Below, in pieces: positions 48,016 to 57,702 of a stretch of 64,000 nt of DNA (the first letter of the stretch is position 1; every line of letters begins with the position of its first letter). The position numbers and the translations under genes are program-made. The notes beneath the pieces were generated by a model. The model worked only from the letters and a program-made list of their open reading frames with translations. It ran no database searches and was not told the origin of the DNA. Source of the stretch: a phage; sequence record PZ338877.1; one strand, 5' to 3'.

Positions 48016-49632
48016 TCAACGTCTAAGCCCCTCATATGGGTTTCCTCTCACTAAGTCTGTGTGAGCACCCATTGATGGTGGCTTGAATAATTTAACTTCG
48101 TTAAGACTGTTGAAAGCATCACTGGTAGCATCCACTTGGTCATCTTTAGTTTTACCGTCACCACAAAAACCTTCAAGTTCTTGAAAGTAAGCTTCGTTCC
48201 AACTGCCTCTCAAGACTTTTACAAGTCCAGCTTCAGAAGCAGCAGAAAATCCCGCAAAGCGGGTAACTTTATCTTTATTTGTTGGTTTAGCTCTTGCGCG
48301 ATAACCTTTCTCGGCAAGTTTCCTGATGAGGGATGTTGCATAGGATTTACCAGCAGCGCCTGGGTCTTGAGGGATAAAAATACCAGTTCGCTTACCGTCA
48401 CTTTCAGCAGTCAAATTAATTTGTGTTTCGACTCCAGAGGGTCTATCTCTAAATCTTACTACATCAATGATATAATAGCAACCGTCTTTTTTAGATTTAC
48501 CCATCTTAACACCCGCTGTCCAGTCTGGGTTAGGGTTAATTTCAGATGGTAAAGTTGCTGCTAAGTCCCATGCTCTGACATCAAACACATCTTCTGGGAG
48601 TGAATCAACAATCTCACACCATTGTCTTTGCCAATAGTTTGAACCTTCTGCACGAGCCTTCCAGTTACCGAAACGAAGTCTTGCAACGTTTACAGGTGTG
48701 TTGTTTTCCAACTTACCACGATACTTAGGCTCTAAGAAGTCAAGAATTGGGTTATCATCAATCGTACCAGAGATGAAGGTGTATGTCTGAGGAATCTCAA
48801 GAGGGAACATTTCAAGAATCTTGTCTCTCTCCCAATCAGAAACCATCACACCATCATTCATAACATACCAACGAATACGACCACATTTCTCAGGGTCTGG
48901 GTAACCTTCTTCATCTAAGAATGGCTCTACCCAATCATAAATGAAGTGGTCTCTATCTGGGTTCATAGAAATCTTCATGTATGAATCGCCTTCAGCACCA
49001 GAACGTAGACGGGTCTGTAGGTATGAAATCTGTGAAGCAGAAAAGTGCGTACCTTCGTCAAAGTAGATAGCTGAGTACTCAATACCCTGATGACCTTCAG
49101 CGTGCTTTTCAAGTTCTAGGTAGGTAAACTTAATAGTTGCCCCAGAAGGGAACGTGATAGTCATCTTCTGCTCGTGAGGAACCCCACCAAACTTACCAAA
49201 TAGTTTCTTTGCAGCAGGCCATAAACCACCTTGTAACTGTGTTGTATTTCGACGGAAATATACAGCGTTATAGTTAGGGTCTTCAATAAACCTTAAAGAG
49301 TCCATTAACAATGCAGCAGTCTTACCAGCACCAGCAGCACCACCATATAGAACCAAGTCAGCATTAGTATTTAAAAAGACCTCTTGAGAACCCGGCTGAG
49401 GGGCTACATAGTTCTTATCAGTCATCAATTTGAAGATAAGTCTAACTTGGTCTGGTGTGTATCTTAATAAAGTCAGAATTTGAGTTGGAAGGAATTTAGA
49501 GGGGTCTTTACCGAATGATTTGATAATTTCTTTTACTTCATCAGAAAGCCCCAACTCTCCAGCTAGGACTTTCCTAACATCTTCCACTCGCTTCTGCTTA
49601 ACAGCATTTAAGTCCATTAAGCACCTCCGCAA
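48016..49632 (-). CDS. terminase large subunit
   Basis: 538 aa; Walker A LYGGAAGAGKTAAL; C-terminal nuclease-like region. Confidence 0.85.
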   Translation of the reverse strand: MRRCLMDLNAVKQKRVEDVRKVLAGELGLSDEVKEIIKSFGKDPSKFLPTQILTLLRYTPDQVRLIFKLMTDKNYVAPQPGSQEVFLNTNADLVLYGGAAGAGKTAALLMDSLRFIEDPNYNAVYFRRNTTQLQGGLWPAAKKLFGKFGGVPHEQKMTITFPSGATIKFTYLELEKHAEGHQGIEYSAIYFDEGTHFSASQISYLQTRLRSGAEGDSYMKISMNPDRDHFIYDWVEPFLDEEGYPDPEKCGRIRWYVMNDGVMVSDWERDKILEMFPLEIPQTYTFISGTIDDNPILDFLEPKYRGKLENNTPVNVARLRFGNWKARAEGSNYWQRQWCEIVDSLPEDVFDVRAWDLAATLPSEINPNPDWTAGVKMGKSKKDGCYYIIDVVRFRDRPSGVETQINLTAESDGKRTGIFIPQDPGAAGKSYATSLIRKLAEKGYRARAKPTNKDKVTRFAGFSAASEAGLVKVLRGSWNEAYFQELEGFCGDGKTKDDQVDATSDAFNSLNEVKLFKPPSMGAHTDLVRGNPYEGLRR

Positions 49633-49638
49633 ATAGAA

Positions 49639-49839
49639 TTATTCAGAGTCTGTAGCAGTCTCTTCTTTCTTAACTTCGAACTTTGCATCAACAGCATCAA
49701 GAAGTGCATCCATAGATGCTTCTTTGATATCAATACCTGTTGCTACAGACAATCTGTCTGCAATTGCCATGATAGTATTCTGCATAAATTCTAGCTTCTT
49801 ATTAGCTTCATAAAGTTCTTTATAAACGGTCTCGCTCAT
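49639..49839 (-). CDS. hypothetical small protein upstream of terminase (possible small terminase-associated)
   Basis: 66 aa. Confidence 0.3.
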   Translation of the reverse strand: MSETVYKELYEANKKLEFMQNTIMAIADRLSVATGIDIKEASMDALLDAVDAKFEVKKEETATDSE

Positions 49840-49964
49840 TATGTTTTCTCCAAATAATTAACCATGTTTCCCCTTAAAAAAGACGGTACAGAGACCGTCA
49901 AGGAGAAACCACAATGTACGTCAGAGACATACTGTATAAGGCTTCTTATAAAGTATAACTCTGT

Positions 49965-50024
49965 AAAAAAGCCCTGTCTAAAAATACTCTTCGGTAGCGA
50001 AAGGAAGAATACTTATAGCAGGGC
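49965..50024 (-). terminator. terminator at 3' end of tRNA array
   Basis: long imperfect hairpin closed by GCCCTG/CAGGGC followed by U6 on minus strand, about 40 nt downstream of tRNA-Cys. Confidence 0.55.
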
Positions 50025-50061
50025 ATTATTATTATTTTAATTGAGAGAGAGTAAAATAACT

Positions 50062-50137
50062 TGGAGAATCCGAAGGGACTCGAACCCTTATAAACCTGTT
50101 TTGCAGACAGGCACATATCCATTTCTGTCACGGATTC
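50062..50137 (-). tRNA. tRNA-Cys (anticodon GCA)
   Basis: minus-strand cloverleaf: T-arm AAGGG-ACTCGAA-CCCTT, anticodon arm CCTGT-TTTGCAG-ACAGG, acceptor CGGATTC, CCA encoded. Confidence 0.8.
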
Positions 50138-50141
50138 AAAT

Positions 50142-50234
50142 TGGAGGAAGATACCAGACTTGAACTGGTACACCGATTTCTCAGCTACTGGCAGTTTAGC
50201 AAACTGCTCCCTTACCTTTTAGGGTTAATCTTCC
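50142..50234 (-). tRNA. tRNA-Ser (anticodon GCU), class II
   Basis: T-arm ACCAG-ACTTGAA-CTGGT, anticodon arm GCAGT-TTAGCAA-ACTGC, 21-nt variable arm, 7-bp acceptor, CCA encoded. Confidence 0.75.
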
Positions 50235-50235
50235 A

Positions 50236-51033
50236 TTATTTCTGTAATGCGTTCTTCATTTCTGGTGTTGCAATAGTGTCAATCACACCAGTTTTACAAG
50301 CATCATCAAACCAGTCTGGTAAGATACCTGCTAAGAACCCATTGATATTCGTTTTAAGGTACTCTGCAATAAGGGCAGCTTCTTCTTCAATCATCTGCAC
50401 AACTTCATCTGCATAAGCTGTAATCTTCGAGATACCTTCATTAATCTTACTAACAGCTTGATTAGCTAAATCAGAAATAGTATCAAGACCTTTATCAATA
50501 GCATCCTGTAAGTCGCTTAATACACCATTAACGCCATCTAGTGTGCTGTTAATTGTATCCATAGCTTTTTGACCATACTCTGTAGCAACACCCATAATAC
50601 CACTAAATGGTGTACAACCAACTTGCTCTCCTGCTGCACCCATAACATTGGAGTAGCCTTTTGCTACCTGCATACGTGAGGAAAACTCATCAATAGATTT
50701 TTGACCATAATCTGTCAATGTTTTAGTAGTTGCTGTAGTGCTTGTCAGACTCGTTGTAAAGCTATTAAGCAGAACTGTTGTAAGTCCAGCAGCAATGAGC
50801 TTATCCTTCATTGTAGGGTCTGTTACAGAGCTAATAGAGCTTACAAGTGATGTAGAGGCAGCTACGGTTCCACCTAGAACTGCTGCACCAGTAATAAGGG
50901 GATTAGAAAACCCTCTACCGGTTTTTAAGAGATTAAAAATCTCCTTACCTTGTTCTGTCATCTCTTTCATTAAGCACCTTTGAAATTGGTAGTCCAGTGG
51001 GATTTGAACCCTCTTCTCATGTTTTTCAGACAC
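50236..51033 (-). CDS. hypothetical Ser/Thr/Ala-rich protein embedded in tRNA array
   Basis: 265 aa ORF between tRNA-Ser and tRNA-Phe. Confidence 0.45.
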   Translation of the reverse strand: MSEKHEKRVQIPLDYQFQRCLMKEMTEQGKEIFNLLKTGRGFSNPLITGAAVLGGTVAASTSLVSSISSVTDPTMKDKLIAAGLTTVLLNSFTTSLTSTTATTKTLTDYGQKSIDEFSSRMQVAKGYSNVMGAAGEQVGCTPFSGIMGVATEYGQKAMDTINSTLDGVNGVLSDLQDAIDKGLDTISDLANQAVSKINEGISKITAYADEVVQMIEEEAALIAEYLKTNINGFLAGILPDWFDDACKTGVIDTIATPEMKNALQK

Positions 51034-51063
51034 GCGCTTTAACCATATAAGCTACTTGGACTA
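50987..51063 (-). tRNA. tRNA-Phe (anticodon GAA)
   Basis: T-arm GTGGG-ATTTGAA-CCCTC, anticodon arm CATGT-TTTTCAG-ACACG; ends approximate. Confidence 0.65.
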
Positions 51064-51068
51064 TAAAT

Positions 51069-51144
51069 TGGGGTGACCTACGGGATTTGAACCCGTATAG
51101 ACCATGTTCACAGCATGGGTCATTACCATTTATGATAAGGCCAC
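51069..51144 (-). tRNA. tRNA-His (anticodon GUG)
   Basis: T-arm ACGGG-ATTTGAA-CCCGT, anticodon arm CCATG-TTCACAG-CATGG, D-stem TCAT/ATGA, CCA encoded. Confidence 0.8.
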
Positions 51145-51175
51145 ATTTAAGGACTCTCGTAAGAATCCTTAGAAG

Positions 51176-51251
51176 TGGCAGCGGCATAAGGATTTGAACC
51201 TTAATAAGACAGCTTCAGAGACTGCTGCATTGCCAGTTATGCTATACCGCT
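51176..51251 (-). tRNA. tRNA-Gln (anticodon CUG)
   Basis: T-arm TAAGG-ATTTGAA-CCTTA, anticodon loop TTCAGAG (rc CTCTGAA), D-stem GCAT/ATGC, CCA encoded. Confidence 0.75.
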
Positions 51252-51256
51252 AAATT

Positions 51257-51335
51257 TGGTACTCCATATCGGATTCGAACCGATACATAACACAGATTTT
51301 AAGTCTGGCCTCTCTGCCAATTGGAGTAATGGAGC
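51257..51335 (-). tRNA. tRNA with Leu-type anticodon UAA, short variable region
   Basis: T-arm ATCGG-ATTCGAA-CCGAT, anticodon loop TTTTAAG (rc CTTAAAA), 7-bp acceptor; only 79 nt. Confidence 0.6.
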
Positions 51336-51337
51336 AT

Positions 51338-51413
51338 TGGCGGGGGATGTTGGAATTGAACCAACTTCTTCGATTTCAAAGACCGAGGTTTTAACCTTGT
51401 AAACTAATCCCCT
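51338..51413 (-). tRNA. tRNA-Gln (anticodon UUG)
   Basis: T-arm GTTGG-AATTGAA-CCAAC, anticodon arm TCGAT-TTCAAAG-ACCGA, D-stem GTTT/AAAC, CCA encoded. Confidence 0.75.
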
Positions 51414-51421
51414 TTAAATCT

Positions 51422-51979
51422 TTACTTTCTTAGTGGATGAATAAAGAATGCCAACATAACTCTTTCCCTTGAGAATGCTCTTTCTTCTGGGACAACACTT
51501 TTAAGTTTCCATCCAACATAAATTCTCCAGTAGAATTGTTTACCAAAGACTTTAATTGATGGGATAAAGGCGAATAATCCCCAAGCATTACTGTTCCACA
51601 TTAGGAGATAACCTGTCTGATTATCTTCAGGGTCAGAACTTACGTTGATATTACCTTTCCACTTAGTAACATCTTTTACATCTCTTCCTAACACATGGTA
51701 AGAGAAGTTATAAGCTTTGTTTCTCCAGAGCCATCCAACTCTCTGCAAATAGACACCCAGCTTACCAATCTTTCTAATCTTAGCCCATCTTTTAATGTGA
51801 CCTTCATCACCATCAATTGGGTTGTCATATGTCTCCATCCATCTGAATCCGAAAGGTAGATGTCCTTTCTTCTCACTATAGAATGGAACTACAAAAGGTG
51901 CTAAGATAACTGCTAAGGTTGCTGCCAATGGGTCTAACAAAGCTAGGAAAATCCATGAAGCATACTTCAAATATCTCAT
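51422..51979 (-). CDS. membrane protein embedded in tRNA array
   Basis: 185 aa; N-terminal hydrophobic helices (ASWIFLALLDPLAATLAVILAPFVVPF). Confidence 0.45.
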   Translation of the reverse strand: MRYLKYASWIFLALLDPLAATLAVILAPFVVPFYSEKKGHLPFGFRWMETYDNPIDGDEGHIKRWAKIRKIGKLGVYLQRVGWLWRNKAYNFSYHVLGRDVKDVTKWKGNINVSSDPEDNQTGYLLMWNSNAWGLFAFIPSIKVFGKQFYWRIYVGWKLKSVVPEERAFSRERVMLAFFIHPLRK

Positions 51980-51998
51980 CTAAATAGCCTCTTTAAAT

Positions 51999-52074
51999 TG
52001 GTGCAGGATAAGGGATTCGAACCCCTATTAACAGCTTCGTAGACTGCTGCTCTATCCATTTGAACTAATCCTGC
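51999..52074 (-). tRNA. tRNA-Arg (anticodon ACG)
   Basis: T-arm AAGGG-ATTCGAA-CCCCT, anticodon loop TTCGTAG (rc CTACGAA), acceptor GCAGGAT/ATCCTGC, CCA encoded. Confidence 0.8.
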
Positions 52075-52188
52075 TTACCTACAAGAACACCATACAGTTT
52101 TTCACAATCTTTGTTTTTACGTCTGTTTAGGTATGACGCTCTAAACTTTTTTGCTATTGACTTATCACTCATAGTGCTCTCCCAAAAT

Positions 52189-52266
52189 TGGTGTTCCAAG
52201 ACGGATTCGAACCGTCACTAGTACAAGGTTTGAGCTTGCATCCTCTGCCAATTGGGATATTGGAAC
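52189..52266 (-). tRNA. tRNA with Leu-type anticodon CAA, class I-like (78 nt)
   Basis: T-arm GACGG-ATTCGAA-CCGTC, anticodon arm ACAAG-GTTTGAG-CTTGC, perfect acceptor GTTCCAA/TTGGAAC, A73, CCA encoded. Confidence 0.65.
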
Positions 52267-52267
52267 A

Positions 52268-52342
52268 TGGTGCTCACTAAAGGACTTGAACCTTTTTCTT
52301 CATCTTGTAAGGGTGATGTTTTACCATATAAACTAAGCGAGT
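52268..52342 (-). tRNA. tRNA-Val (anticodon UAC)
   Basis: T-arm AAAGG-ACTTGAA-CCTTT, anticodon loop TTGTAAG (rc CTTACAA), D-stem GTTT/AAAC. Confidence 0.7.
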
Positions 52343-52437
52343 ATGAAAGAGGTCTGAAGTTGTGCCGCTCACTCAACTCCGTGGAATTTGTTACGGTCTT
52401 CAGTTGACACCAGCGGTCTTTCACTTGACCTCTGAAT
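52343..52437 (-). ncRNA. structured non-tRNA element inside tRNA array (candidate small RNA)
   Basis: 95 nt between tRNA-Val and tRNA-Thr; closing 7-bp helix AGAGGUC/GACCUCU plus internal inverted repeats; lacks T-loop consensus; contains a GGTCTTCAG motif copy. Confidence 0.3.
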
Positions 52438-52513
52438 TGGTGCTCCCACAAGGATTCGAACCCTGATAAGTTGCTTACAAGGCAACCGTAATAGCCAATT
52501 ATACGATAGGAGC
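52438..52513 (-). tRNA. tRNA-Thr (anticodon UGU)
   Basis: T-arm CAAGG-ATTCGAA-CCCTG, perfect anticodon stem GTTGC/GCAAC with loop TTACAAG. Confidence 0.8.
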
Positions 52514-52520
52514 ATTAATT

Positions 52521-52595
52521 TGGAGCATCCAGAGGGAATCGAACCCTCAACCTCAGTTTGGAAGACTGTAATTTTCCCGTTTAAACTATGGATGC
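52521..52595 (-). tRNA. tRNA-Gly (anticodon UCC)
   Basis: T-arm GAGGG-AATCGAA-CCCTC, anticodon loop TTGGAAG, perfect acceptor GCATCCA/TGGATGC. Confidence 0.8.
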
Positions 52596-52601
52596 ACTAA
52601 T

Positions 52602-52677
52602 TGGTGGAGTCACTGAGAATTGAACTCAGTTCCCAAGTTTGCAAAACTCGAATTTTAACCATATAAACTATGACCCC
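52602..52677 (-). tRNA. tRNA-Ala (anticodon UGC)
   Basis: T-arm CTGAG-AATTGAA-CTCAG, anticodon arm CAAGT-TTGCAAA-ACTCG. Confidence 0.7.
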
Positions 52678-52683
52678 AATGTT

Positions 52684-52759
52684 TGGTACAGGTGGAGGGA
52701 ATTGAACCCATCGTCTTACTGATTAAGAGTCAGCCGCATAACCATTTTGCTACACCTGC
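52684..52759 (-). tRNA. tRNA-Lys (anticodon CUU)
   Basis: anticodon stem CTGA/TCAG with loop TTAAGAG; acceptor ACAGGTG/CACCTGC; paralogous to tRNA at 53998-54073. Confidence 0.7.
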
Positions 52760-52766
52760 ATTGATT

Positions 52767-52844
52767 TGGTAGGAGACAAGGGATTCGAACCCTCAAACAC
52801 CAACTTCTAAGGATGGTAGGTTTACCAATTACCGTCAATCTCCC
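52767..52844 (-). tRNA. tRNA with Leu-type anticodon UAG, class I-like (78 nt)
   Basis: T-arm AAGGG-ATTCGAA-CCCTC, anticodon arm CCAAC-TTCTAAG-GATGG, A73, CCA encoded. Confidence 0.6.
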
Positions 52845-53097
52845 ATTAAATCTTTTTAGAGAACTTCTAAGAACCTAAGCAACAAGGTTCCACAACAAGC
52901 TGTAATAACCTTAGAAGCCCTCTAAAAAGACCTAAATATGTCTTTGCATAGTCTTGTTTAATCCGGTGACTAGAACCTTTGGAGAGCTTGATATTATCTC
53001 TTCTCCGTGACACCTACTAGGTGCTTTATCAGTGTGTACGACAATACACGAGGGATAAACCGAAAATGCGAGCAAGCATGACGGTGTAAATCTTATT

Positions 53098-53188
53098 AGG
53101 CGGTAAGTAAAGGAGTCGAACCCTCACCGTATCTCTACAGTGGCAACAGTTTTCAAGACTGTTTGGCTGCCATTAGCCGCTACCTACC
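53098..53188 (-). tRNA. tRNA-Ser (anticodon UGA), class II
   Basis: T-arm AAAGG-AGTCGAA-CCCTC, perfect anticodon stem ACAGT/ACTGT with loop TTTCAAG, long variable arm. Confidence 0.7.
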
Positions 53189-53201
53189 CCTAATAAGACT
53201 T

Positions 53202-53284
53202 TGGCATGGGACGGAGGAGTTGAACCCCTTTGAAACGGTTTTGGAGGCCGTTGCTCATGCCTTAGAGTCTTAACATCGTCCCAC
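53202..53284 (-). tRNA. atypical tRNA-Trp-like gene (anticodon core CCA, 9-nt anticodon loop)
   Basis: T-arm GGAGG-AGTTGAA-CCCCT, acceptor ATGGGAC/GTCCCAC, CCA encoded; anticodon stem AACGG/CCGTT encloses 9 nt (tRNA sense CCUCCAAAA); D region about 8 nt longer than canonical. Confidence 0.5.
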
Positions 53285-53426
53285 ACTATAATTCGAAGCT
53301 TACCGTATTTTCGCAACACTGTAAAGCCCCTTCTCAGATTATTTACATGTTCTGGAAAACATGAGATACAGACCACCTCCTTACACGGAGACCCGATAAG
53401 GTCGTCTAAGCAATCTGCTAACTATT

Positions 53427-53503
53427 TGGCACACCCTACAGGATTCGAACCTGTAACTAACGATTTAGAAGACCGTTGCTCTATCCAATTGAACTAAGGG
53501 TGC
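53427..53503 (-). tRNA. tRNA-Arg (anticodon UCU)
   Basis: T-arm ACAGG-ATTCGAA-CCTGT, anticodon arm ACGAT-TTAGAAG-ACCGT, D-stem GCTC/GAAC. Confidence 0.8.
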
Positions 53504-53839
53504 ATTAATCTTTAAAGACTCTCTTAGAAAGCCCTTAAAGATGCCCACCTTATTAATCATACCGTGGGCGAGTACGCCAAATTCTTTGATGAGGGATTGG
53601 AAGACCTCACTGGTGTTTAGCCTATCAAGCTACTGCCAGAAAAACATTGTCGTTTGCATTTATTTTAAATTTGCAAAATAGACGCTACGCAACGAAAACT
53701 ATTCAGAATATGTACAACAAATTTCCCCACATTGTGTTACGTCTAACGCTCATGTATTGGTGTTTGAATTATACATATTGTGAAGTATTTTAGTTACTAT
53801 AAAGTGGTCACATCTTAATGTCAACAACTTTATTGAAAT

Positions 53840-53915
53840 TGGTACTGGTAGGTGGAATCGAACCACCGATGTTCCCTTATCAGGGGAGTGTTATAACCTT
53901 CTTAACTATACCAGC
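53840..53915 (-). tRNA. tRNA-Ile (anticodon GAU)
   Basis: T-arm GGTGG-AATCGAA-CCACC, anticodon loop TTATCAG, acceptor ACTGGTA/TACCAGC. Confidence 0.8.
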
Positions 53916-53916
53916 T

Positions 53917-53993
53917 TGGAGGTTCAGATGGGAATCGAACCCACATTCATAGGGCTTATGAGACCCCTGCATTACCTTATCTGCGACTGAACC
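53917..53993 (-). tRNA. tRNA with CAU anticodon (Met/fMet; three G-C pairs in anticodon stem)
   Basis: T-arm ATGGG-AATCGAA-CCCAC, anticodon arm AGGGC-TTATGAG-ACCCC, perfect acceptor GGTTCAG/CTGAACC. Confidence 0.75.
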
Positions 53994-53997
53994 ATAT

Positions 53998-54073
53998 TGG
54001 TAGAAGTGGAGGGATTCGAACCCATCGCCTGTCAGATTAAAAGTCTGCCGCATCACCATTCTGCTACACTTCC
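53998..54073 (-). tRNA. tRNA-Lys (anticodon UUU)
   Basis: anticodon stem CAGA/TCTG with loop TTAAAAG; acceptor AGAAGTG/CACTTCC. Confidence 0.7.
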
Positions 54074-54275
54074 ATTAAATTACCTTTGCAGTAACCTACG
54101 CAGACCTTGCTAAAGGGTCTGTAGAGTCATTTCCTCTTAAGCTAATCTAGAATCATGCTAAGGAAATTCATCGGCACTCATGGGACGACATAATTAGCCA
54201 CATAAGCTACTGCAAAGATAATTACCAGACCGTTGTTTATCATCTTAAGTGCTACCATTACACCAACTCGACATC

Positions 54276-54321
54276 TGCCGAGTGAAGGAATCGAACCTTC
54301 GCCTTTTCTTTACCGGAGAAA
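54276..54321 (-). pseudogene. tRNA-like fragment (3' half only)
   Basis: intact T-arm GAAGG-AATCGAA-CCTTC and 3' acceptor strand plus a 5-7-5 hairpin, but no complementary 5' acceptor strand; anticodon loop has C at position 33. Confidence 0.35.
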
Positions 54322-54336
54322 TAGATTGTTTAAGTT

Positions 54337-54360
54337 TTGCTGTAAACGGTCTTCTGTAAA
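54337..54360. repeat. short repeat family copy (TTGCTGTAAACGGTCTTCTGTAAA)
   Basis: one of 4-5 copies of TTGCTG(Y)A(W)(W)(Y)GGTCTTCTG within tRNA array. Confidence 0.7.
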
Positions 54361-54423
54361 TTTGTTGAGCCAGACCAAGTTTTAAATTTTTCAAAATTAA
54401 ATTGGCTTGAAATTTTAAGTAAC

Positions 54424-54444
54424 TTGCTGTATTTGGTCTTCTGC
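54424..54444. repeat. short repeat family copy (TTGCTGTATTTGGTCTTCTGC)
   Basis: same motif family. Confidence 0.7.
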
Positions 54445-54530
54445 TCCTTTAAAGAATACTCGTAAGAACTCTTTAAGGGAGGGGCTAAATAGCCCTCTCA
54501 AAACATCATCTTGAAATACTTATTATAATT

Positions 54531-54608
54531 TGGCGGTTACGAAGGGATTTGAACCCTCATCATCTCCCGTGACAGGGGAGTATTTTAACCAGATTAAACT
54601 ACATAACC
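54531..54608 (-). tRNA. tRNA-Asp (anticodon GUC)
   Basis: T-arm AAGGG-ATTTGAA-CCCTC, perfect anticodon stem CTCCC/GGGAG with loop GTGACAG. Confidence 0.8.
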
Positions 54609-54614
54609 TTTATT

Positions 54615-54702
54615 TGGTGTGCCGTGTAGGAGTCGAACCTACCGAGTCTCAATGACAAGGGATTTACAGTCCCCACCGCTACCATCTACGGGATAACGAC
54701 AC
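54615..54702 (-). tRNA. tRNA-Tyr (anticodon GUA), class II
   Basis: T-arm GTAGG-AGTCGAA-CCTAC, anticodon arm AGGGA-TTTACAG-TCCCC, 15-nt variable arm. Confidence 0.75.
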
Positions 54703-54773
54703 ATTTTATTATTCTATTCAGGCTAAGGACTTGCACCTTACAAATCGGTGAGCAATCGCTTCTCTCCTAAATT

Positions 54774-54850
54774 TGGCGGTTAGTCAGGGATTCGAACCCT
54801 GTGCCATTCGCTTAACAGGCGACCGCACATACCTTATGTGCTTCCTAACC
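54774..54850 (-). tRNA. tRNA-Asn (anticodon GUU)
   Basis: T-arm CAGGG-ATTCGAA-CCCTG, anticodon loop TTAACAG, D-stem GCAC/GTGC. Confidence 0.7.
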
Positions 54851-54902
54851 TTAATACATTGCCAGACCGTGTTTTTTTCTTTTATCCGCAAAAAGTAGTT
54901 TG

Positions 54903-54927
54903 TTGCTGCATACGGTCTTCTGCAAAA
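54903..54927. repeat. short repeat family copy (TTGCTGCATACGGTCTTCTGCAAA)
   Basis: same motif family, immediately 3' of tRNA at 54929. Confidence 0.7.
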
Positions 54928-54928
54928 T

Positions 54929-55005
54929 TGGAGGCGGGTGCAGGAGTCGAACCTGCCGATACCATGCTAATGAGACATGTGAGACGCCCTTTCTCTATAC
55001 CCGCA
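54929..55005 (-). tRNA. tRNA with CAU anticodon (second copy; Met or Ile2-type)
   Basis: T-arm GCAGG-AGTCGAA-CCTGC, anticodon arm CATGC-TAATGAG-ACATG; 1:72 unpaired; U at position 37. Confidence 0.6.
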
Positions 55006-55069
55006 ATTCTTAATGACCAGACCAAATCTCTTCTTTGTCCGATTTACCTTCAGATGAATAAGATTAAGT

Positions 55070-55094
55070 TTGCTGTAATTGGTCTTCTGTCAAA
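55070..55094. repeat. short repeat family copy (TTGCTGTAATTGGTCTTCTGTCAAA)
   Basis: same motif family, immediately 3' of tRNA-Glu. Confidence 0.7.
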
Positions 55095-55096
55095 AC

Positions 55097-55174
55097 TGGC
55101 GTTCCAGAAGGGATTTGAACCCTCAAATATCCACTTTGAAAGAGTGGTGACTTTACCATTTTGTCTACTGGAAC
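55097..55174 (-). tRNA. tRNA-Glu (anticodon UUC)
   Basis: T-arm AAGGG-ATTTGAA-CCCTC, perfect anticodon stem CCACT/AGTGG with loop TTGAAAG, perfect acceptor. Confidence 0.8.
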
Positions 55175-55181
55175 ATTAATT

Positions 55182-55258
55182 TGGTCTCTGTTGGAGGACT
55201 TGAACCTCCGGCCTTACCGCCCCAAACGGAACGCTCTACCAAGCTGAGCTAAACAGAG
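55182..55258 (-). tRNA. tRNA-Pro (anticodon UGG)
   Basis: T-arm GGAGG-ACTTGAA-CCTCC, anticodon loop CCCCAAA, D-stem GCTC/GAGC, perfect acceptor. Confidence 0.8.
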
Positions 55259-55423
55259 ATAAACTTTTCAAACTCTATGTAACCACTTTAACATTATTTT
55301 TTAGTGGTTGTCAAGAACTTTTTTAAAATATTTTTCAGTATCTTAGAAAAGCTCTCATTTCGTTTCTATGTAGAACATATTAAAGGGTATCAAACACATT
55401 GTCAATACCCTTTTTAAAACTTT

Positions 55424-56839
55424 TTACCAGATGTAACGGTCAATCATTACTGCTTTGAGCATTACGCTGATTGGGTCAAACTTCTCACCGCCAAGAAGAG
55501 CTTTTAAAGTGGCTGGAGAGAACCCTGATACCATTGCTACACCATTATCCTTAACAGATACTTCGCAAGTACCATTACGGTTTGCTAAGTACCAGAATAC
55601 TAGTTGCGGCATTTCGTATCCAGCTTTTTTGTACTTACTCTGAATTGCTTCAAAGTTTGTACGACCATTTGCACCATCAACCTGATTAAACTCCATATCA
55701 GAGAAGATAATGAGCTTACTTGGCATATCTTTCTGAGTCAAGTTGTTTCTCTTACCTACCTCAAGGATACGGTCAAAAGCTGCTTGTAAGTTAGTTGAGC
55801 CATATTCAACATGACGCATTACCTGACGGTGACGGTTTCGTAAATCACCACTCAGTTCAATGAAATGAGGGTTTGTTGAATAGACCATTAACTCATCTTT
55901 AAAGCAACCTGTATTGCGTTCTGCTACATACAAGGCAAGTGATACACCAATATCAAGGGCAGTAATTGAGCCAAGATTCACCCAAGACATTGAGCTTGAA
56001 ACATCAGTCATACATAAGATGTTTTCACCTTCTGCCATCCAGTTTGGTAGTGCTTTCCACTGCTCATTAGCGACATCAGCATTACCATACTTGATAGATT
56101 TAATCACATCGTATGGGTAAACAGCACCAGCGTTAATCTTGGCCTCACCTTTTGAGAGGGACTCGATGTAAGCTTTGTAACGTTCCCCATCTTTACGGCT
56201 AAAGAGCTTTTGGTAACGTGCAGCAGCGAGTGAAGGAATCTTGCTGTAGTCAATCTTACCAAACTCATTAGCAGAGATTTTTTGCTCAACCGTATCAGAT
56301 AGTGCAGATAACAGTGTGCGATACTCCTTCTCACTTAAGTTTGCAAACTTACAGAAACGTTTTACAAACTGTTTATGGCGTGGTTTTACTCGTGGCAACC
56401 ACTTAGCTGCTAAACCTGCTGTTGCAGGGTCTAGTAATGCTGATTCTAAATGTTTGAAGGCATCTGTCTCAAAACGAGTACCTACGAAGATTTTGAAGTC
56501 ATCAAAACGACCAAGTTCTGCAATCTTATCCATAATGCGAAGAACCTGTGTAGGTTCTAAAACTTTATCTTCAATTGCTTGAAGTAAAACAGTTCGGAAA
56601 GCTTTACGCTCACCCATACCTTCTCGTACATCTCGCATATGCAGTAAAATACGAACTGCAACATCAACATCCTCACGCAAAGCTTTGTAGAACAGGTCTG
56701 GTAAGATTTCTACATTGCTACGGCTTGAGCCAGCGGCTTTGTAAAAATCTACCAGAGCAGACATTGATGAAGTATGGTTTACAGCACCATTTTCAGTTCG
56801 ACCTGCATGAAGGTGCGCATGTTTAAATAACTCGCTCAT
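55424..56839 (-). CDS. vWA-domain protein with N-terminal helical domain (Ro60/TROVE-like or DUF2828-like, putative)
   Basis: 471 aa; C-terminal von Willebrand A fold with MIDAS-like DVSSSMS and later LIIFSDMEFN; N-terminal about 270-aa helical region; first gene upstream of tRNA array. Confidence 0.55.
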   Translation of the reverse strand: MSELFKHAHLHAGRTENGAVNHTSSMSALVDFYKAAGSSRSNVEILPDLFYKALREDVDVAVRILLHMRDVREGMGERKAFRTVLLQAIEDKVLEPTQVLRIMDKIAELGRFDDFKIFVGTRFETDAFKHLESALLDPATAGLAAKWLPRVKPRHKQFVKRFCKFANLSEKEYRTLLSALSDTVEQKISANEFGKIDYSKIPSLAAARYQKLFSRKDGERYKAYIESLSKGEAKINAGAVYPYDVIKSIKYGNADVANEQWKALPNWMAEGENILCMTDVSSSMSWVNLGSITALDIGVSLALYVAERNTGCFKDELMVYSTNPHFIELSGDLRNRHRQVMRHVEYGSTNLQAAFDRILEVGKRNNLTQKDMPSKLIIFSDMEFNQVDGANGRTNFEAIQSKYKKAGYEMPQLVFWYLANRNGTCEVSVKDNGVAMVSGFSPATLKALLGGEKFDPISVMLKAVMIDRYIW

Positions 56840-56919
56840 ATTTTACTCTCTTCTCTCATTGTTGTTTGATGTGACAGACTTTAGAGCAACTTTGTAGAGT
56901 CTGTCAACACCTTTTAAAA

Positions 56920-57291
56920 TTATTTTTTGAGAGTCGCTACAGCAGAGAACGTTGGTTTGTTATCTGTCTGTGGCTGACCACCATTATCAGTGGTCTTCTT
57001 AGTGTCTGCTGCAAGTGCTTTCATCTCACCTGCTGAGTGAGTAAAGATAGTTTTACCGACCTCAATCATGCTCTTGATGGTTACGTCATCTGTGTTTAAC
57101 CCGAACTCTGCAAGTTTGGCAGCGTCCCTTGTAACAATCGCCTCAAACAACTTTGCAGCAAACTCAGCAGAATTATCAATGGTCAGTTGAGCTTTTACGA
57201 GTGAGCTTTTGTTACGTGAACCTTTTGGTCTTCCAGATGGGTTACCAGACTGGCCTTTTTTAAACTGGCCTTTGTTTGTTCTGTTTTTCAT
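56920..57291 (-). CDS. hypothetical protein with basic N-terminal GNPSGRPKG (AT-hook-like) motif
   Basis: 123 aa; N-terminus KGQFKKGQSGNPSGRPKGSRNK. Confidence 0.45.
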   Translation of the reverse strand: MKNRTNKGQFKKGQSGNPSGRPKGSRNKSSLVKAQLTIDNSAEFAAKLFEAIVTRDAAKLAEFGLNTDDVTIKSMIEVGKTIFTHSAGEMKALAADTKKTTDNGGQPQTDNKPTFSAVATLKK

Positions 57292-57418
57292 TGGTATGCC
57301 TCTTATAAGACCTCTTAAAAGGCTTTTAAGATAAAAGATAGATATCCAGAAAGATATCTGTTTAAATAGCCTTTTTAGAGGAACCTTTTAAGTTATCTTC
57401 TAAGTATTTATAAGCCTA

Positions 57419-57495
57419 CACCTTGTCAAGTACTTTGTCAACAACTTTTTTAGCTTGCAATAGTTCTTGACTTGTTGTATGGATTACTGTACCAT
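57419..57495 (+). promoter_or_regulatory. conserved motif CACCTTGTCAAGTACTTTGTCAAC followed by sigma70-like promoter
   Basis: motif near-identical to 15429-15452; downstream TTGACT (57467-57472) - 17 nt - TACCAT (57490-57495). Confidence 0.45.
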
Positions 57496-57540
57496 CTTAC
57501 TTAAAGCTGTAGGTCTGCCTTGTTCTACAAAGGAGACTTA

Positions 57541-57702
57541 ATGAGAAAATCAAACAACCCGAAGAAAGGTAAAAATACCAATCACTGTAAGGAATCAAAA
57601 AGGGTAGAGTTACTCTACTATTCATCCTCTGAAATTGGTCTGTACCTGTTCTTTCAAAATTACAGAAGACAAGAGGATTATCTATGTGTAGTTCCCAATT
57701 AG
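57541..57702 (+). CDS. hypothetical small basic protein
   Basis: 53 aa from ATG with AAGGAG RBS. Confidence 0.3.
   Translation: MRKSNNPKKGKNTNHCKESKRVELLYYSSSEIGLYLFFQNYRRQEDYLCVVPN

What the first reader, a model, noticed from the sequence alone, without database searches (positions are those of the whole stretch)
55424..56839. vWA-domain protein (possible Ro60/TROVE-like) directly beside the 27-gene tRNA array
The 471-aa product has a C-terminal von Willebrand A fold with a MIDAS-like DxSxS motif (DVSSSMS) and an N-terminal about 270-aa helical domain. That layout resembles Ro60/Rsr (TROVE + vWA) and DUF2828-type phage proteins. It is the first gene upstream of, and co-oriented with, a tRNA array that also holds structured non-tRNA elements. 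In bacteria Ro60 orthologues work with Y RNAs that have tRNA-like modules and are encoded next to the protein gene. A phage-encoded RNA-binding or RNA quality-control module acting on its own tRNAs would be noteworthy.
Basis: partly seen in the sequence, partly recalled or inferred. Interest (0 to 1): 0.7.

Follow-up and report, generated by a model that had tools for sequence, protein, structure and literature searches.

The report
Phage Ro60-like protein with Y-RNA partner
This Felix-O1-type phage gene encodes a compact look-alike of the RNA-binding ring protein Ro60; its near-identical twin in phage Bas63 is already reported to block a bacterial defence, and a conserved tRNA-mimicking small RNA of the kind that partners Ro60 lies 1.1 kb downstream inside the tRNA array.

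Summary
Window 55424-56839 (-) encodes a 471-aa protein (Pfam DUF2828 + DUF7788, PHROG 850) with a complete MIDAS motif. It ends 165 nt upstream of a co-oriented array of 26 tRNA genes in a Felixounavirus genome.

The protein is 97% identical to Bas63 gp130. A 2024 preprint already called gp130 Ro60-like, noted the tRNA adjacency, suggested Y RNAs, and showed that it counters the Ppl defence, even in T7.

New here: Y-RNA-like permuted tRNA mimics lie beside DUF2828-type genes on the same strand in about 10 viral lineages, including Enterococcus phage EFDG1 and mycobacteriophage Archie, and in 10 of 80 bacterial loci. The window has a candidate at 54218-54320 (-) with compensatory changes among relatives.

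Another flagged segment (53508-53701) is instead a tmRNA-tag-like element found in 612 phage records.

RNA binding and expression remain untested.

The parts
55424..56839 (-). Ro60-like protein gene (DUF2828 + DUF7788/vWA with MIDAS), 471 aa; ortholog of Bas63 gp130
56878..56907 (-). Sigma-70-type promoter-like site (TTGACA-18-TAAAGT) between the DUF5681 gene and the Ro-like gene; embedded in a hairpin
   Evidence: Consensus scan and fold of the 80-nt spacer. Total site counts in the region are not above chance, so the site is suggestive only.
55382..55413 (-). 12-bp hairpin directly after the stop codon (terminator-like), overlapping the -35 of the first of two promoter-like sites ahead of tRNA-Pro
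   Evidence: Terminator-like and promoter-like hits at 55405-55377 and 55314-55285. The spacer has MFE z = -3.8.
54218..54320 (-). Candidate Y-RNA-like tRNA mimic: closing stem, T-arm GAAGG-UUCGAUU-CCUUC, variable hairpin, D-arm-like hairpin
   Evidence: Custom YrlA-derived covariance model R2 with filters off: 28.0 bits, E about 1e-6, full-length, no tRNA overlap. Homologs in 252 Ounavirinae records. Compensatory changes at 3 of 6 pairs in the middle hairpin; 97% of cells paired against 41-57% in slid controls. A syntenic clean hit follows tRNA-Asp in L089.
50062..55258 (-). Array of 26 tRNA genes, co-oriented with the Ro-like gene, interrupted by two ORFs (DUF7338, DUF7217) and several non-tRNA segments
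   Evidence: ARAGORN, Rfam, Pfam on the embedded ORFs.
56920..57291 (-). DUF5681 gene (123 aa, basic N-terminus); conserved immediate upstream neighbour within the Ounavirinae only
   Evidence: Pfam. Same gene order in L088 and L089, SUSP2 and Bas63. It is a neighbour in only 2 of 19 lineages overall.

Best explanation
The gene encodes a compact Ro60-like ring protein: an alpha-helical solenoid closed by a vWA domain with an intact metal-binding MIDAS site. It appears to be made early from its own sigma-70-type promoter. By analogy with Ro60/Rsr it binds structured RNAs or single-stranded 3' ends. It most likely forms a ribonucleoprotein with a phage-encoded Y-RNA-like tRNA mimic (window 54218-54320) that is transcribed and processed together with the tRNA array. 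The RNA would gate the ring or tether it to host tRNA-recognising or exonucleolytic enzymes such as PNPase. The net role is to protect the infection against host defences: the 97%-identical Bas63 gp130 neutralises the Ppl 3'-5' exonuclease defence. What is shown here: the fold, the conserved MIDAS, the orthology, the recurrent linkage to tRNA genes, and the presence and covariation of Y-like RNAs next to family members. What comes from the literature: the anti-Ppl activity. What is inferred: RNA binding, RNP formation, and the molecular step that blocks Ppl.
Against: gp130 alone protects T7, which carries none of these RNAs, so the anti-Ppl activity does not need a phage Y-like RNA. The window candidate scores only 28 bits, close to the artefact hits that overlap annotated tRNAs (up to 24.4 bits in the window, up to about 40 bits elsewhere). 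The default filters missed it, and its single-sequence MFE is not better than shuffles (z = -0.43). No clean Y-like hit was found in the Ounavirinae relatives L088 and L009, and about half of the viral loci have neither a tRNA nor a Y-like hit nearby. The canonical Rsr-binding GNCGAA motif is not conserved in these RNAs. The N-terminal domain has no sequence-level similarity to TROVE. There are no expression or binding data. The structure is a prediction.
Confidence: 0.55

Rival explanations
1. The protein is a stand-alone anti-defence protein. The ring caps single-stranded 3' ends, or the vWA/MIDAS face binds Ppl directly, and no dedicated RNA partner is needed. The nearby tRNA-like RNA is unrelated or only co-located in an accessory-gene island.
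For: gp130 expressed from a plasmid or from the T7 genome restores T7 growth on a ppl host without any Bas63 RNA. Ppl acts on 3'-OH ssDNA ends, and the Ro60 ring is known to thread single-stranded 3' ends (established knowledge of Ro60 structures 1YVP and 2I91). vWA MIDAS sites commonly mediate protein-protein contacts. About half of the family loci show no Y-like hit.
Against: Y-like RNAs recur next to the gene, on the same strand and mostly within 1 kb, in many independent lineages, including loci with no tRNAs. Canonical Ro60 also has Y-RNA-free activities, so the T7 result does not exclude an RNP in the native phage. Host RNAs could substitute in the T7 experiment.
Confidence: 0.25
2. The protein is a tRNA quality-control or repair scaffold. 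It binds damaged or misfolded phage or host tRNAs and hands them to RNA ligases (RtcB, Rnl) or nucleases, countering anticodon-nuclease defences, in analogy to the bacterial rsr-yrlBA-rtcBA operon.
For: In Listeria phage LP-083-2 the gene sits between the tRNA array and RtcB, an RNA ligase and a phosphohydrolase. LeBron, which carries the same family, encodes an RNA ligase and a polynucleotide kinase. The Aravind-lab survey treats phage ROT/TROVE proteins as RNA-repair platforms. The gene is strongly linked to tRNA arrays.
Against: No RNA ligase, kinase or RtcB lies in this window's neighbourhood, and none is a recurrent neighbour across lineages. The only tested phenotype concerns a DNA exonuclease defence. 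In Bas63 the tRNAs are mostly dispensable.
Confidence: 0.12
3. The position next to tRNAs has no functional meaning. The gene and the tRNAs simply share a hot spot for accessory genes and homing endonucleases, and the vWA protein has some unrelated (for example structural or assembly) role.
For: Homing endonucleases are the most frequent protein neighbours, in 5 of 19 lineages. 40 of 75 viral loci have no tRNA in the available flank. Other vWA proteins act as assembly co-chaperones in phages.
Against: The full-length fold match is specific to Ro60, not to structural or MoxR-type vWA proteins. The gene lies 235 nt from the only three tRNAs annotated within 5 kb either side in Campylobacter PC5, and it is adjacent to tRNAs in unrelated phage families. 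Y-like RNAs occur beside it even where no tRNAs are present. The locus sits among early and accessory genes rather than virion genes.
Confidence: 0.05

Closest known systems
Bas63 (Escherichia phage JohannRWettstein) gp130, PhageMaP preprint PMC11482910
   Same: 97% identical (459/471), same length, same position between the DUF5681 gene and tRNA-Pro. The preprint describes it as structurally similar to Ro60, notes that it lies directly upstream of the tRNAs, speculates about Y RNAs, and shows that it counters the ppl defence.
   Different: The preprint guessed that some annotated tRNAs might be Y RNAs. Here the candidate is a separate, unannotated permuted tRNA mimic in an inter-tRNA gap (in Bas63 it overlaps the dubious antisense ORF bas63_0137). 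Family-wide Y-like RNAs and sequence-level homology to TROVE/vWA were not reported there.
Ro60/Rsr with Y RNAs (TROVE PF05731 + vWA; Xenopus 1YVP, human 9NEN, Deinococcus 2NVO; YrlA RF02553)
   Same: Ring of helical repeats closed by a vWA domain with MIDAS. Tends to be encoded within a few kb of tRNA-like Y RNAs with T-arm-then-D-arm order, on the same strand (Chen et al. 2014).
   Different: About 70 residues shorter. The N-terminal domain is not recognisable as TROVE by Pfam or hhalign. The Y-like RNAs lack the conserved GNCGAA Rsr-binding motif. Canonical TROVE Ro60 occurs in 358 phage records, almost all actinophages; this family occurs in 710 records with no overlap among the organisms listed.
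Thermus phage phiLo Ro60 with Yrl1/Yrl2 (PDB 9KOP, 9L5Y; PMC12135203)
   Different: phiLo Ro60 is a canonical TROVE protein with CGAA-containing Yrls. Identity to this protein is only 15-16%, and a family profile does not find it by sequence.
Mycobacteriophage 'Ro-like RNA binding protein' genes: cluster C (TROVE type, e.g. ET08 gp220 with YrlA) and cluster L (DUF2828 type, e.g. Archie gp55, LeBron gp53)
   Same: The cluster L proteins are true homologs (33-34% identity over the full length). Archie has a clean Y-like hit 161 nt downstream of its gene.
   Different: The cluster C proteins belong to the other (TROVE) family. The cluster L genes are not next to tRNAs. LeBron gp53 is only known to be moderately toxic on overexpression.

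Membership tests
Ro60/Rsr (TROVE) ribonucleoprotein family | TROVE domain recognisable by sequence (Pfam PF05731) | tested here: not met
   No TROVE hit at E <= 1 in Pfam. hhalign of the N-terminal 236 residues against the TROVE N-terminal profile gives probability 0.2%. A family profile against PDB sequences gives only a vWA match to Ro60 at E 0.58.
Ro60/Rsr (TROVE) ribonucleoprotein family | Ring-shaped helical-repeat domain closed by a vWA domain (three-dimensional architecture) | tested here: met
Ro60/Rsr (TROVE) ribonucleoprotein family | vWA domain with MIDAS motif DxSxS...T...D, homologous to the Ro60 vWA | tested here: met
   D279, S281, S283, T349 and D381 are invariant. hhalign gives 91.7%, E 7.8e-7, over the last TROVE helix plus vWA, with DVSGSM aligned to DVSGSM.
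Ro60/Rsr (TROVE) ribonucleoprotein family | Y RNA gene(s) with a tRNA-like module within about 4 kb on the same strand | tested here: met
   Family level: EFDG1, Archie, about 10 viral lineages and 10 of 80 bacterial loci. Window: candidate at 54218-54320, 1.1 kb downstream, with covariation. Expression is unverified, and the window hit scores a modest 28 bits.
Ro60/Rsr (TROVE) ribonucleoprotein family | Conserved Ro-binding motif (GNCGAAN0-1G / GGUCCGA) in the Y RNA closing stem | tested here: not met
   The EFDG1 copies have no CGAA in the stem. In the window group a 'GGCGAAG' string is part of the T-arm, and it is lost in ESh22 and Moogle.
Ro60/Rsr (TROVE) ribonucleoprotein family | Demonstrated binding of Y RNA or misfolded RNA, and association with an exoribonuclease such as PNPase | not testable with these tools
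   This needs RIP or CLIP, EMSA and pull-downs.
DUF2828/DUF7788 family (PHROG 850 'RNA-binding protein') | Both Pfam domains above the gathering score, and a full-length match to the PHROG profile | tested here: met
   PF11443 at 102.7 bits (cut-off 29) and PF25043 at 148.9 bits (cut-off 27.1). phrog_850 at E 1.1e-183 over residues 1-471.
Anti-Ppl counter-defence proteins (Bas63 gp130 type) | Orthology to gp130 (sequence and synteny) | tested here: met
   97% identity, same flanking genes and the same tRNA order.
Anti-Ppl counter-defence proteins (Bas63 gp130 type) | Neutralises Ppl in vivo | not testable with these tools
   Reported for gp130 only. Inferred for this protein from the 97% identity.

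The most novel reading that the evidence does not exclude
DUF2828/DUF7788 proteins are a second, widespread branch of Ro60-like ribonucleoproteins, found in phages of Proteobacteria, Firmicutes, Actinobacteria and Campylobacter and in many bacterial genomes. Their Y-like tRNA-mimic partners are embedded in or beside phage tRNA arrays. The RNP acts as a counter-defence device, for example by capping or decoying 3' ends against Ppl-type exonucleases or by shielding the phage translation-RNA set. That would give the long-unclear bacterial Ro60/Y RNA system a tractable E. coli phage model with a clear phenotype.
Probability: 0.3. Interest if true: 0.75.

Novelty: new variant of a known kind. Interest (0 to 1): 0.55.

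Why it matters
What Ro60 and Y RNAs do in bacteria is still poorly defined, and canonical examples sit in organisms that are hard to work with. This protein family is more common in phages than canonical Ro60 (710 phage records against 358). It occurs in model coliphages (Felix O1, Bas63) and already has a plaque phenotype (anti-Ppl). If the Y-like RNAs found here are real partners, the system offers a direct genetic and biochemical route to how a Ro-type ring and a tRNA mimic cooperate. It would also explain why the gene so often accompanies phage tRNA arrays. On the practical side, gp130-type genes can be moved between phages to extend host range on defended strains.

Tried and rejected
- Searching PDB sequences with the protein alone or with the family profile gave nothing significant; Ro60 vWA appeared only at E 0.58.
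- The Rfam scan of 49500-57600 at E <= 1 gave no YrlA, Y_RNA or ROOL hit in the window. The consensus-only model R1 also found nothing there.
- The MAFFT alignment of YrlA sequences (A4) misaligned the D-arm, so I did not use it for a model.
- The default Infernal filters missed the window candidate. It was recovered only with filters off.
- BLAST clustering of neighbour proteins found no conserved partner. The best clusters were GIY-YIG homing endonucleases (5 of 19 lineages) and an RNase H-like protein, PF04308 (4 of 19).
- The DUF5681 upstream gene is conserved only within the Ounavirinae, so I rejected it as a general partner.
- hhalign of the N-terminal domain against TROVE was negative.
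- A literature search on 'DUF2828' returned only incidental mentions, mostly in plant studies. The primary Ppl mechanism paper is not in the library. The supplement tables of Chen et al. 2014 are not held, so I could not check whether any DUF2828-type phage Y RNA was already listed. PhageMaP has no text on g137/g138.
- I considered segment 53504-53839 as a Y RNA and rejected it. It is a tmRNA-tag-like element found in many phages that appear to lack the Ro-like gene.
- I could not compute a rigorous genome-wide baseline for tRNA proximity. The argument rests on dereplicated lineages and a rough geometric expectation of about 5-10% per lineage.

Full report
**1. Observation**

The window is a Felixounavirus genome. 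The 7.4-kb stretch around the finding is 95-97% identical to many Felix-O1-like phages, and the protein is 97.7% identical to that of Felix O1.

ORF 55424-56839 (-) encodes 471 aa. Pfam assigns DUF2828 (PF11443) and DUF7788 (PF25043), both well above their gathering scores. PHROG 850, labelled 'RNA-binding protein', matches end to end.

ARAGORN finds 26 tRNA genes at 50062-55258, all on the minus strand. The first, tRNA-Pro, lies 165 nt after the stop codon. The MIDAS residues D279, S281, S283, T349 and D381 are invariant in a 62-sequence alignment.

**2. What the protein is**

An AlphaFold2 model built on that alignment is confident (pLDDT 90.2, pTM 0.90).

- In Foldseek against the PDB, the ten best matches are exclusively Ro60 family structures: Thermus phage phiLo Ro60 (9KOP), Xenopus and human Ro60, and Deinococcus Rsr. 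They align over the whole length with E 7.5e-8 to 3e-6. Scores then drop about 1000-fold to isolated vWA domains.
- At the sequence level, a profile-profile comparison with canonical TROVE proteins gives 91.7% probability (E 7.8e-7). The TROVE alignment was seeded from mycobacteriophage ET08 gp220 and included human Ro60, whose recalled sequence I verified against PDB 9NEN. The aligned region covers the last TROVE helix ('RVHP' aligned with 'AVYPYDV') and the entire vWA domain, including an identical DVSGSM.
- The N-terminal 236 residues alone show no profile similarity to TROVE (probability 0.2%), and Pfam TROVE does not hit.

The protein is therefore Ro60-like in architecture and homologous in its C-terminal half. 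By sequence it is not a TROVE family member. It belongs to a separate, compact branch.

**3. Prior knowledge**

The family is annotated 'RNA-binding protein' or 'Ro-like RNA binding protein' in many of the 710 phage records that carry it.

The protein is 97% identical to Bas63 gp130 and sits in the same place. The PhageMaP preprint (PMC11482910) states that gp130 has high structural similarity to Ro60 and lies directly upstream of the tRNA genes, and that some of those might be Y RNAs. It shows that deleting gp130 sensitises Bas63 to the Ppl defence, and that gp130 alone, from a plasmid or inserted in T7, restores T7 growth on a ppl host. A 2026 review describes Ppl as a ssDNA 3'-5' exonuclease activated by nucleotide depletion and by 3'-OH ends (PMC12904381).

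Canonical TROVE Ro60 with YrlA RNAs was known in mycobacteriophages (Chen et al. 2014). A Thermus phage Ro60 with two Y-like RNAs and PNPase recruitment was characterised in 2025.

**4. Linkage to tRNA genes**

I examined 80 IMG/VR loci, 75 of them only 39-47% identical to the query.

- 16 have a tRNA within 1 kb, 35 have a tRNA or tmRNA within 10 kb, and every tRNA is on the gene's strand.
- After dereplication at 60% protein identity there are 19 lineages. Of these, 9 have a tRNA within 1 kb and 13 within 3 kb.

Cultured phages from unrelated taxa show the same pattern:

| Phage | Context |
|---|---|
| Campylobacter PC5 | The only three tRNAs within 5 kb either side end 235 nt upstream |
| Bacillus Tsamsa | 19-tRNA array ends 612 nt upstream |
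| Enterococcus EFDG1 | Array 1.7 kb upstream |
| Listeria LP-083-2 | Last tRNA of the array about 620 nt upstream; RtcB and an RNA ligase downstream |
| Staphylococcus S-CoN_Ph6 | tRNA 2.3 kb downstream |
| Vibrio D486 | Array 4.4 kb upstream |
| Mycobacteriophage Archie | No tRNA within 6 kb |

No protein neighbour is comparably conserved. The best clusters are homing endonucleases in 5 of 19 lineages and an RNase H-like protein in 4 of 19. I could not compute a formal genome-wide baseline. A rough geometric expectation is 5-10% per lineage, so the excess is large but not rigorously quantified.

**5. Y-RNA-like partners**

*Positive control.* Rfam's YrlA model detects the published ET08 Y RNA just upstream of its TROVE gene (37.4 bits).

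*First hit in the DUF2828 family.* In EFDG1 the unannotated 678-nt spacer upstream of the DUF2828-type gene holds two full-length YrlA matches (44.9 and 34.2 bits). A third copy lies in the array. All have the YrlA hallmark of a T-arm, then a stem, then a D-arm, enclosed by a closing stem.

*Viral loci.* I built a covariance model from the Rfam consensus (R1), realigned the true hits and rebuilt it (R2). I then scanned 1.4 Mb of loci. After removing hits that overlap ARAGORN tRNAs or tmRNAs (the known tandem-tRNA artefact), 25 clean hits remain. They fall in 10 lineages at E <= 1e-4, and in 8 of those the hit is within 1.5 kb of the gene. All are on the gene's strand. Examples are L024 (55 nt upstream, 49.7 bits), L049 (41-158 nt downstream) and Archie (161 nt downstream, 33.8 bits).

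*Independent replication.* In 80 bacterial or MAG loci, 10 loci have clean hits, mostly within 1 kb of the gene, and 5 of those loci contain no tRNA at all.

*Covariation.* The family alignment is 86% paired, against 39-47% in slid controls, and 22 of 24 pairs show compensatory changes. This alignment is model-fitted and contains six artefact rows, so it is supportive only.

**6. The window's candidate**

With filters off, the best R2 hit in 49500-57600 is 54218-54320 (-), at 28.0 bits and full length. It lies in the 457-nt gap between tRNA-Asp and tRNA-Lys and overlaps no tRNA. The other high-scoring hits there overlap annotated tRNAs and reach at most 24.4 bits.

Its homologs occur in 252 phage records with the same organism profile as the Felix-like carriers of the protein. 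In an alignment of seven Ounavirinae, the T-arm and D-arm are invariant while the middle hairpin changes from CUCGG/UCGAG to ACACG/CGUGU to CCCUUC/GAAGGG. Three of its six pairs are compensatory and pairing is 100%. The whole structure is 97% paired against 41-57% in slid controls. A syntenic clean hit follows tRNA-Asp in a relative whose protein is 56% identical (L089).

Weaknesses:
- The score is modest, and the MFE z-score is only -0.43.
- No clean hit was found in two other relatives (L088, L009).
- The canonical CGAA motif is absent.
- Nothing is known about expression.

**7. Transcription context**

Perfect TTGACA promoter-like sites on the minus strand lie just upstream of the Ro-like gene (56907-56878) and twice in the 165-nt spacer before tRNA-Pro. 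A 12-bp hairpin follows the stop codon directly. This suggests the gene is a separate early unit and is not necessarily co-transcribed with the array. Site counts in the region do not exceed chance, so this point is tentative.

**8. Mechanism**

The best-supported view is a Ro60-type ring that binds structured RNA or 3' tails and pairs, in its native phage, with a Y-like tRNA mimic produced from the tRNA array, with the outcome of protecting the infection from host defences.

The T7 result shows that the anti-Ppl step itself does not need phage RNAs. That keeps a protein-only mechanism (3'-end capping, or direct MIDAS-mediated inhibition) as the main rival. A tRNA-repair scaffold role is suggested by the Listeria and LeBron contexts but has no support in this window. 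A purely coincidental location is unlikely.

**9.

Segment 53504-53839 contains a promoter-like site (TTGACA-17-TATAGT) and a 194-nt element (53508-53701). That element is 97% conserved even where the Ro-like protein is only 63% identical.

It carries a 10-codon tmRNA-tag-like frame, ANDNVFLAVA*. The frame is conserved with synonymous and conservative variation, and with all three stop codons, in HK620, Cba120, a T5-like phage, phiEa104, a Vibrio phage and PJ16. Helices in the element show covariation. It occurs in 612 phage records, many of which appear to lack the Ro-like gene, so it is not a specific partner.

Segments 52846-53097 and 53189-53426 are conserved but remain unexplained.

**10. 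Verdict**

The added value here is:
- sequence-level homology to Ro60 in the C-terminal half;
- a quantified linkage to tRNA genes across lineages;
- the first systematic evidence that this DUF2828 branch has Y-like tRNA-mimic RNAs, including a specific candidate in this window.

Interest is moderate (0.55). I classify it as a new variant of a known kind.

Noticed in passing
window 53508-53701 (-); tag-like frame 53657-53625: A 194-nt element with a tmRNA-like mRNA domain: resume-type GCA codon, a 10-codon frame ANDNVFLAVA* (E. coli tmRNA encodes ANDENYALAA*) and a helix enclosing the stop codon. Neither ARAGORN nor Rfam finds a tRNA-like domain. The frame is conserved in HK620 (between pR'/qut and tQ), Cba120, a T5-like Klebsiella phage, Erwinia phiEa104, Vibrio pYD38-A and PJ16, as ANEEMYLAVA, ANDNTFLAVA, ANDNQYLAVA, ANDAQFLAVA and ANEERFLMAA. 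It occurs in 612 phage records, is mostly unannotated, and I found no description of it in the library.
   Followed up: partly
L003 4429-4980 (Listeria phage LP-083-2): A ROOL RNA (RF03087; 87.4 bits, E 2e-16, just under the gathering score) lies inside the tRNA array about 1 kb upstream of the DUF2828-type gene. RtcB, an RNA ligase and a phosphohydrolase lie downstream.
   Followed up: no
L096 1071-1421; L028, L032, L036, L037, L047, L050: Complete phage-encoded tmRNA genes lie 3-7 kb from DUF2828-type genes on the same strand in EFDG1 and in six IMG/VR loci. Several of their tags end in ...ELAVA, like the tag-like element in the window.
   Followed up: no
window 56878-56907, 55377-55413, 55285-55314, 53796-53824 (-): There are repeated perfect TTGACA promoter-like sites. 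At least two (56878-56907 and 55377-55413) have the -35 hexamer in one arm of a hairpin that reaches toward the -10 region. They are reminiscent of the promoter-stem-loop elements of T4-type phages.
   Followed up: no
window 53702-53792 (-): The window and Bas63 carry an insertion of about 91 nt between the promoter-like site and the tmRNA-tag-like element. It is absent from L008, L087 and L088.
   Followed up: no
window 52845-53098 and 53189-53426 (-): Two further non-tRNA gaps in the array are 88-91% identical in a relative whose Ro-like protein is only 63% identical (L088). One has a weak tRNA-Sec-like hit (53208-53282). Their nature is unexplained.
   Followed up: no
window 54703-54773 and 52343-52437 (-): There are short conserved spacers with tRNA-fragment-like or long-stem folds. 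By eye, one contains a T-arm-like AAGG-UGCAAGU-CCUU hairpin, and the other is a 95-nt element closed by CAGAGGUC/GACCUCU. No model matched either.
   Followed up: no
window 51422-51979 and 50236-51033 (-): Two protein genes are embedded in the tRNA array: DUF7338 (185 aa, membrane-like) and DUF7217 (265 aa). Both are conserved in relatives.
   Followed up: no
L129, L131 (Chloroflexi genome bins): 23 to 25 tRNA genes are packed within the 4 kb flanks around a DUF2828-type gene on contigs assigned to bacterial genomes, one of them 522 kb long. These may be prophages or mis-binned phage DNA.
   Followed up: no
L002, L096, L099, L028 and others: GIY-YIG and HNH homing endonuclease genes are the most frequent protein neighbours of the family (5 of 19 lineages). 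According to a review, Ppl senses 3'-OH ends made by phage homing endonucleases. The possible connection was not pursued.
   Followed up: no
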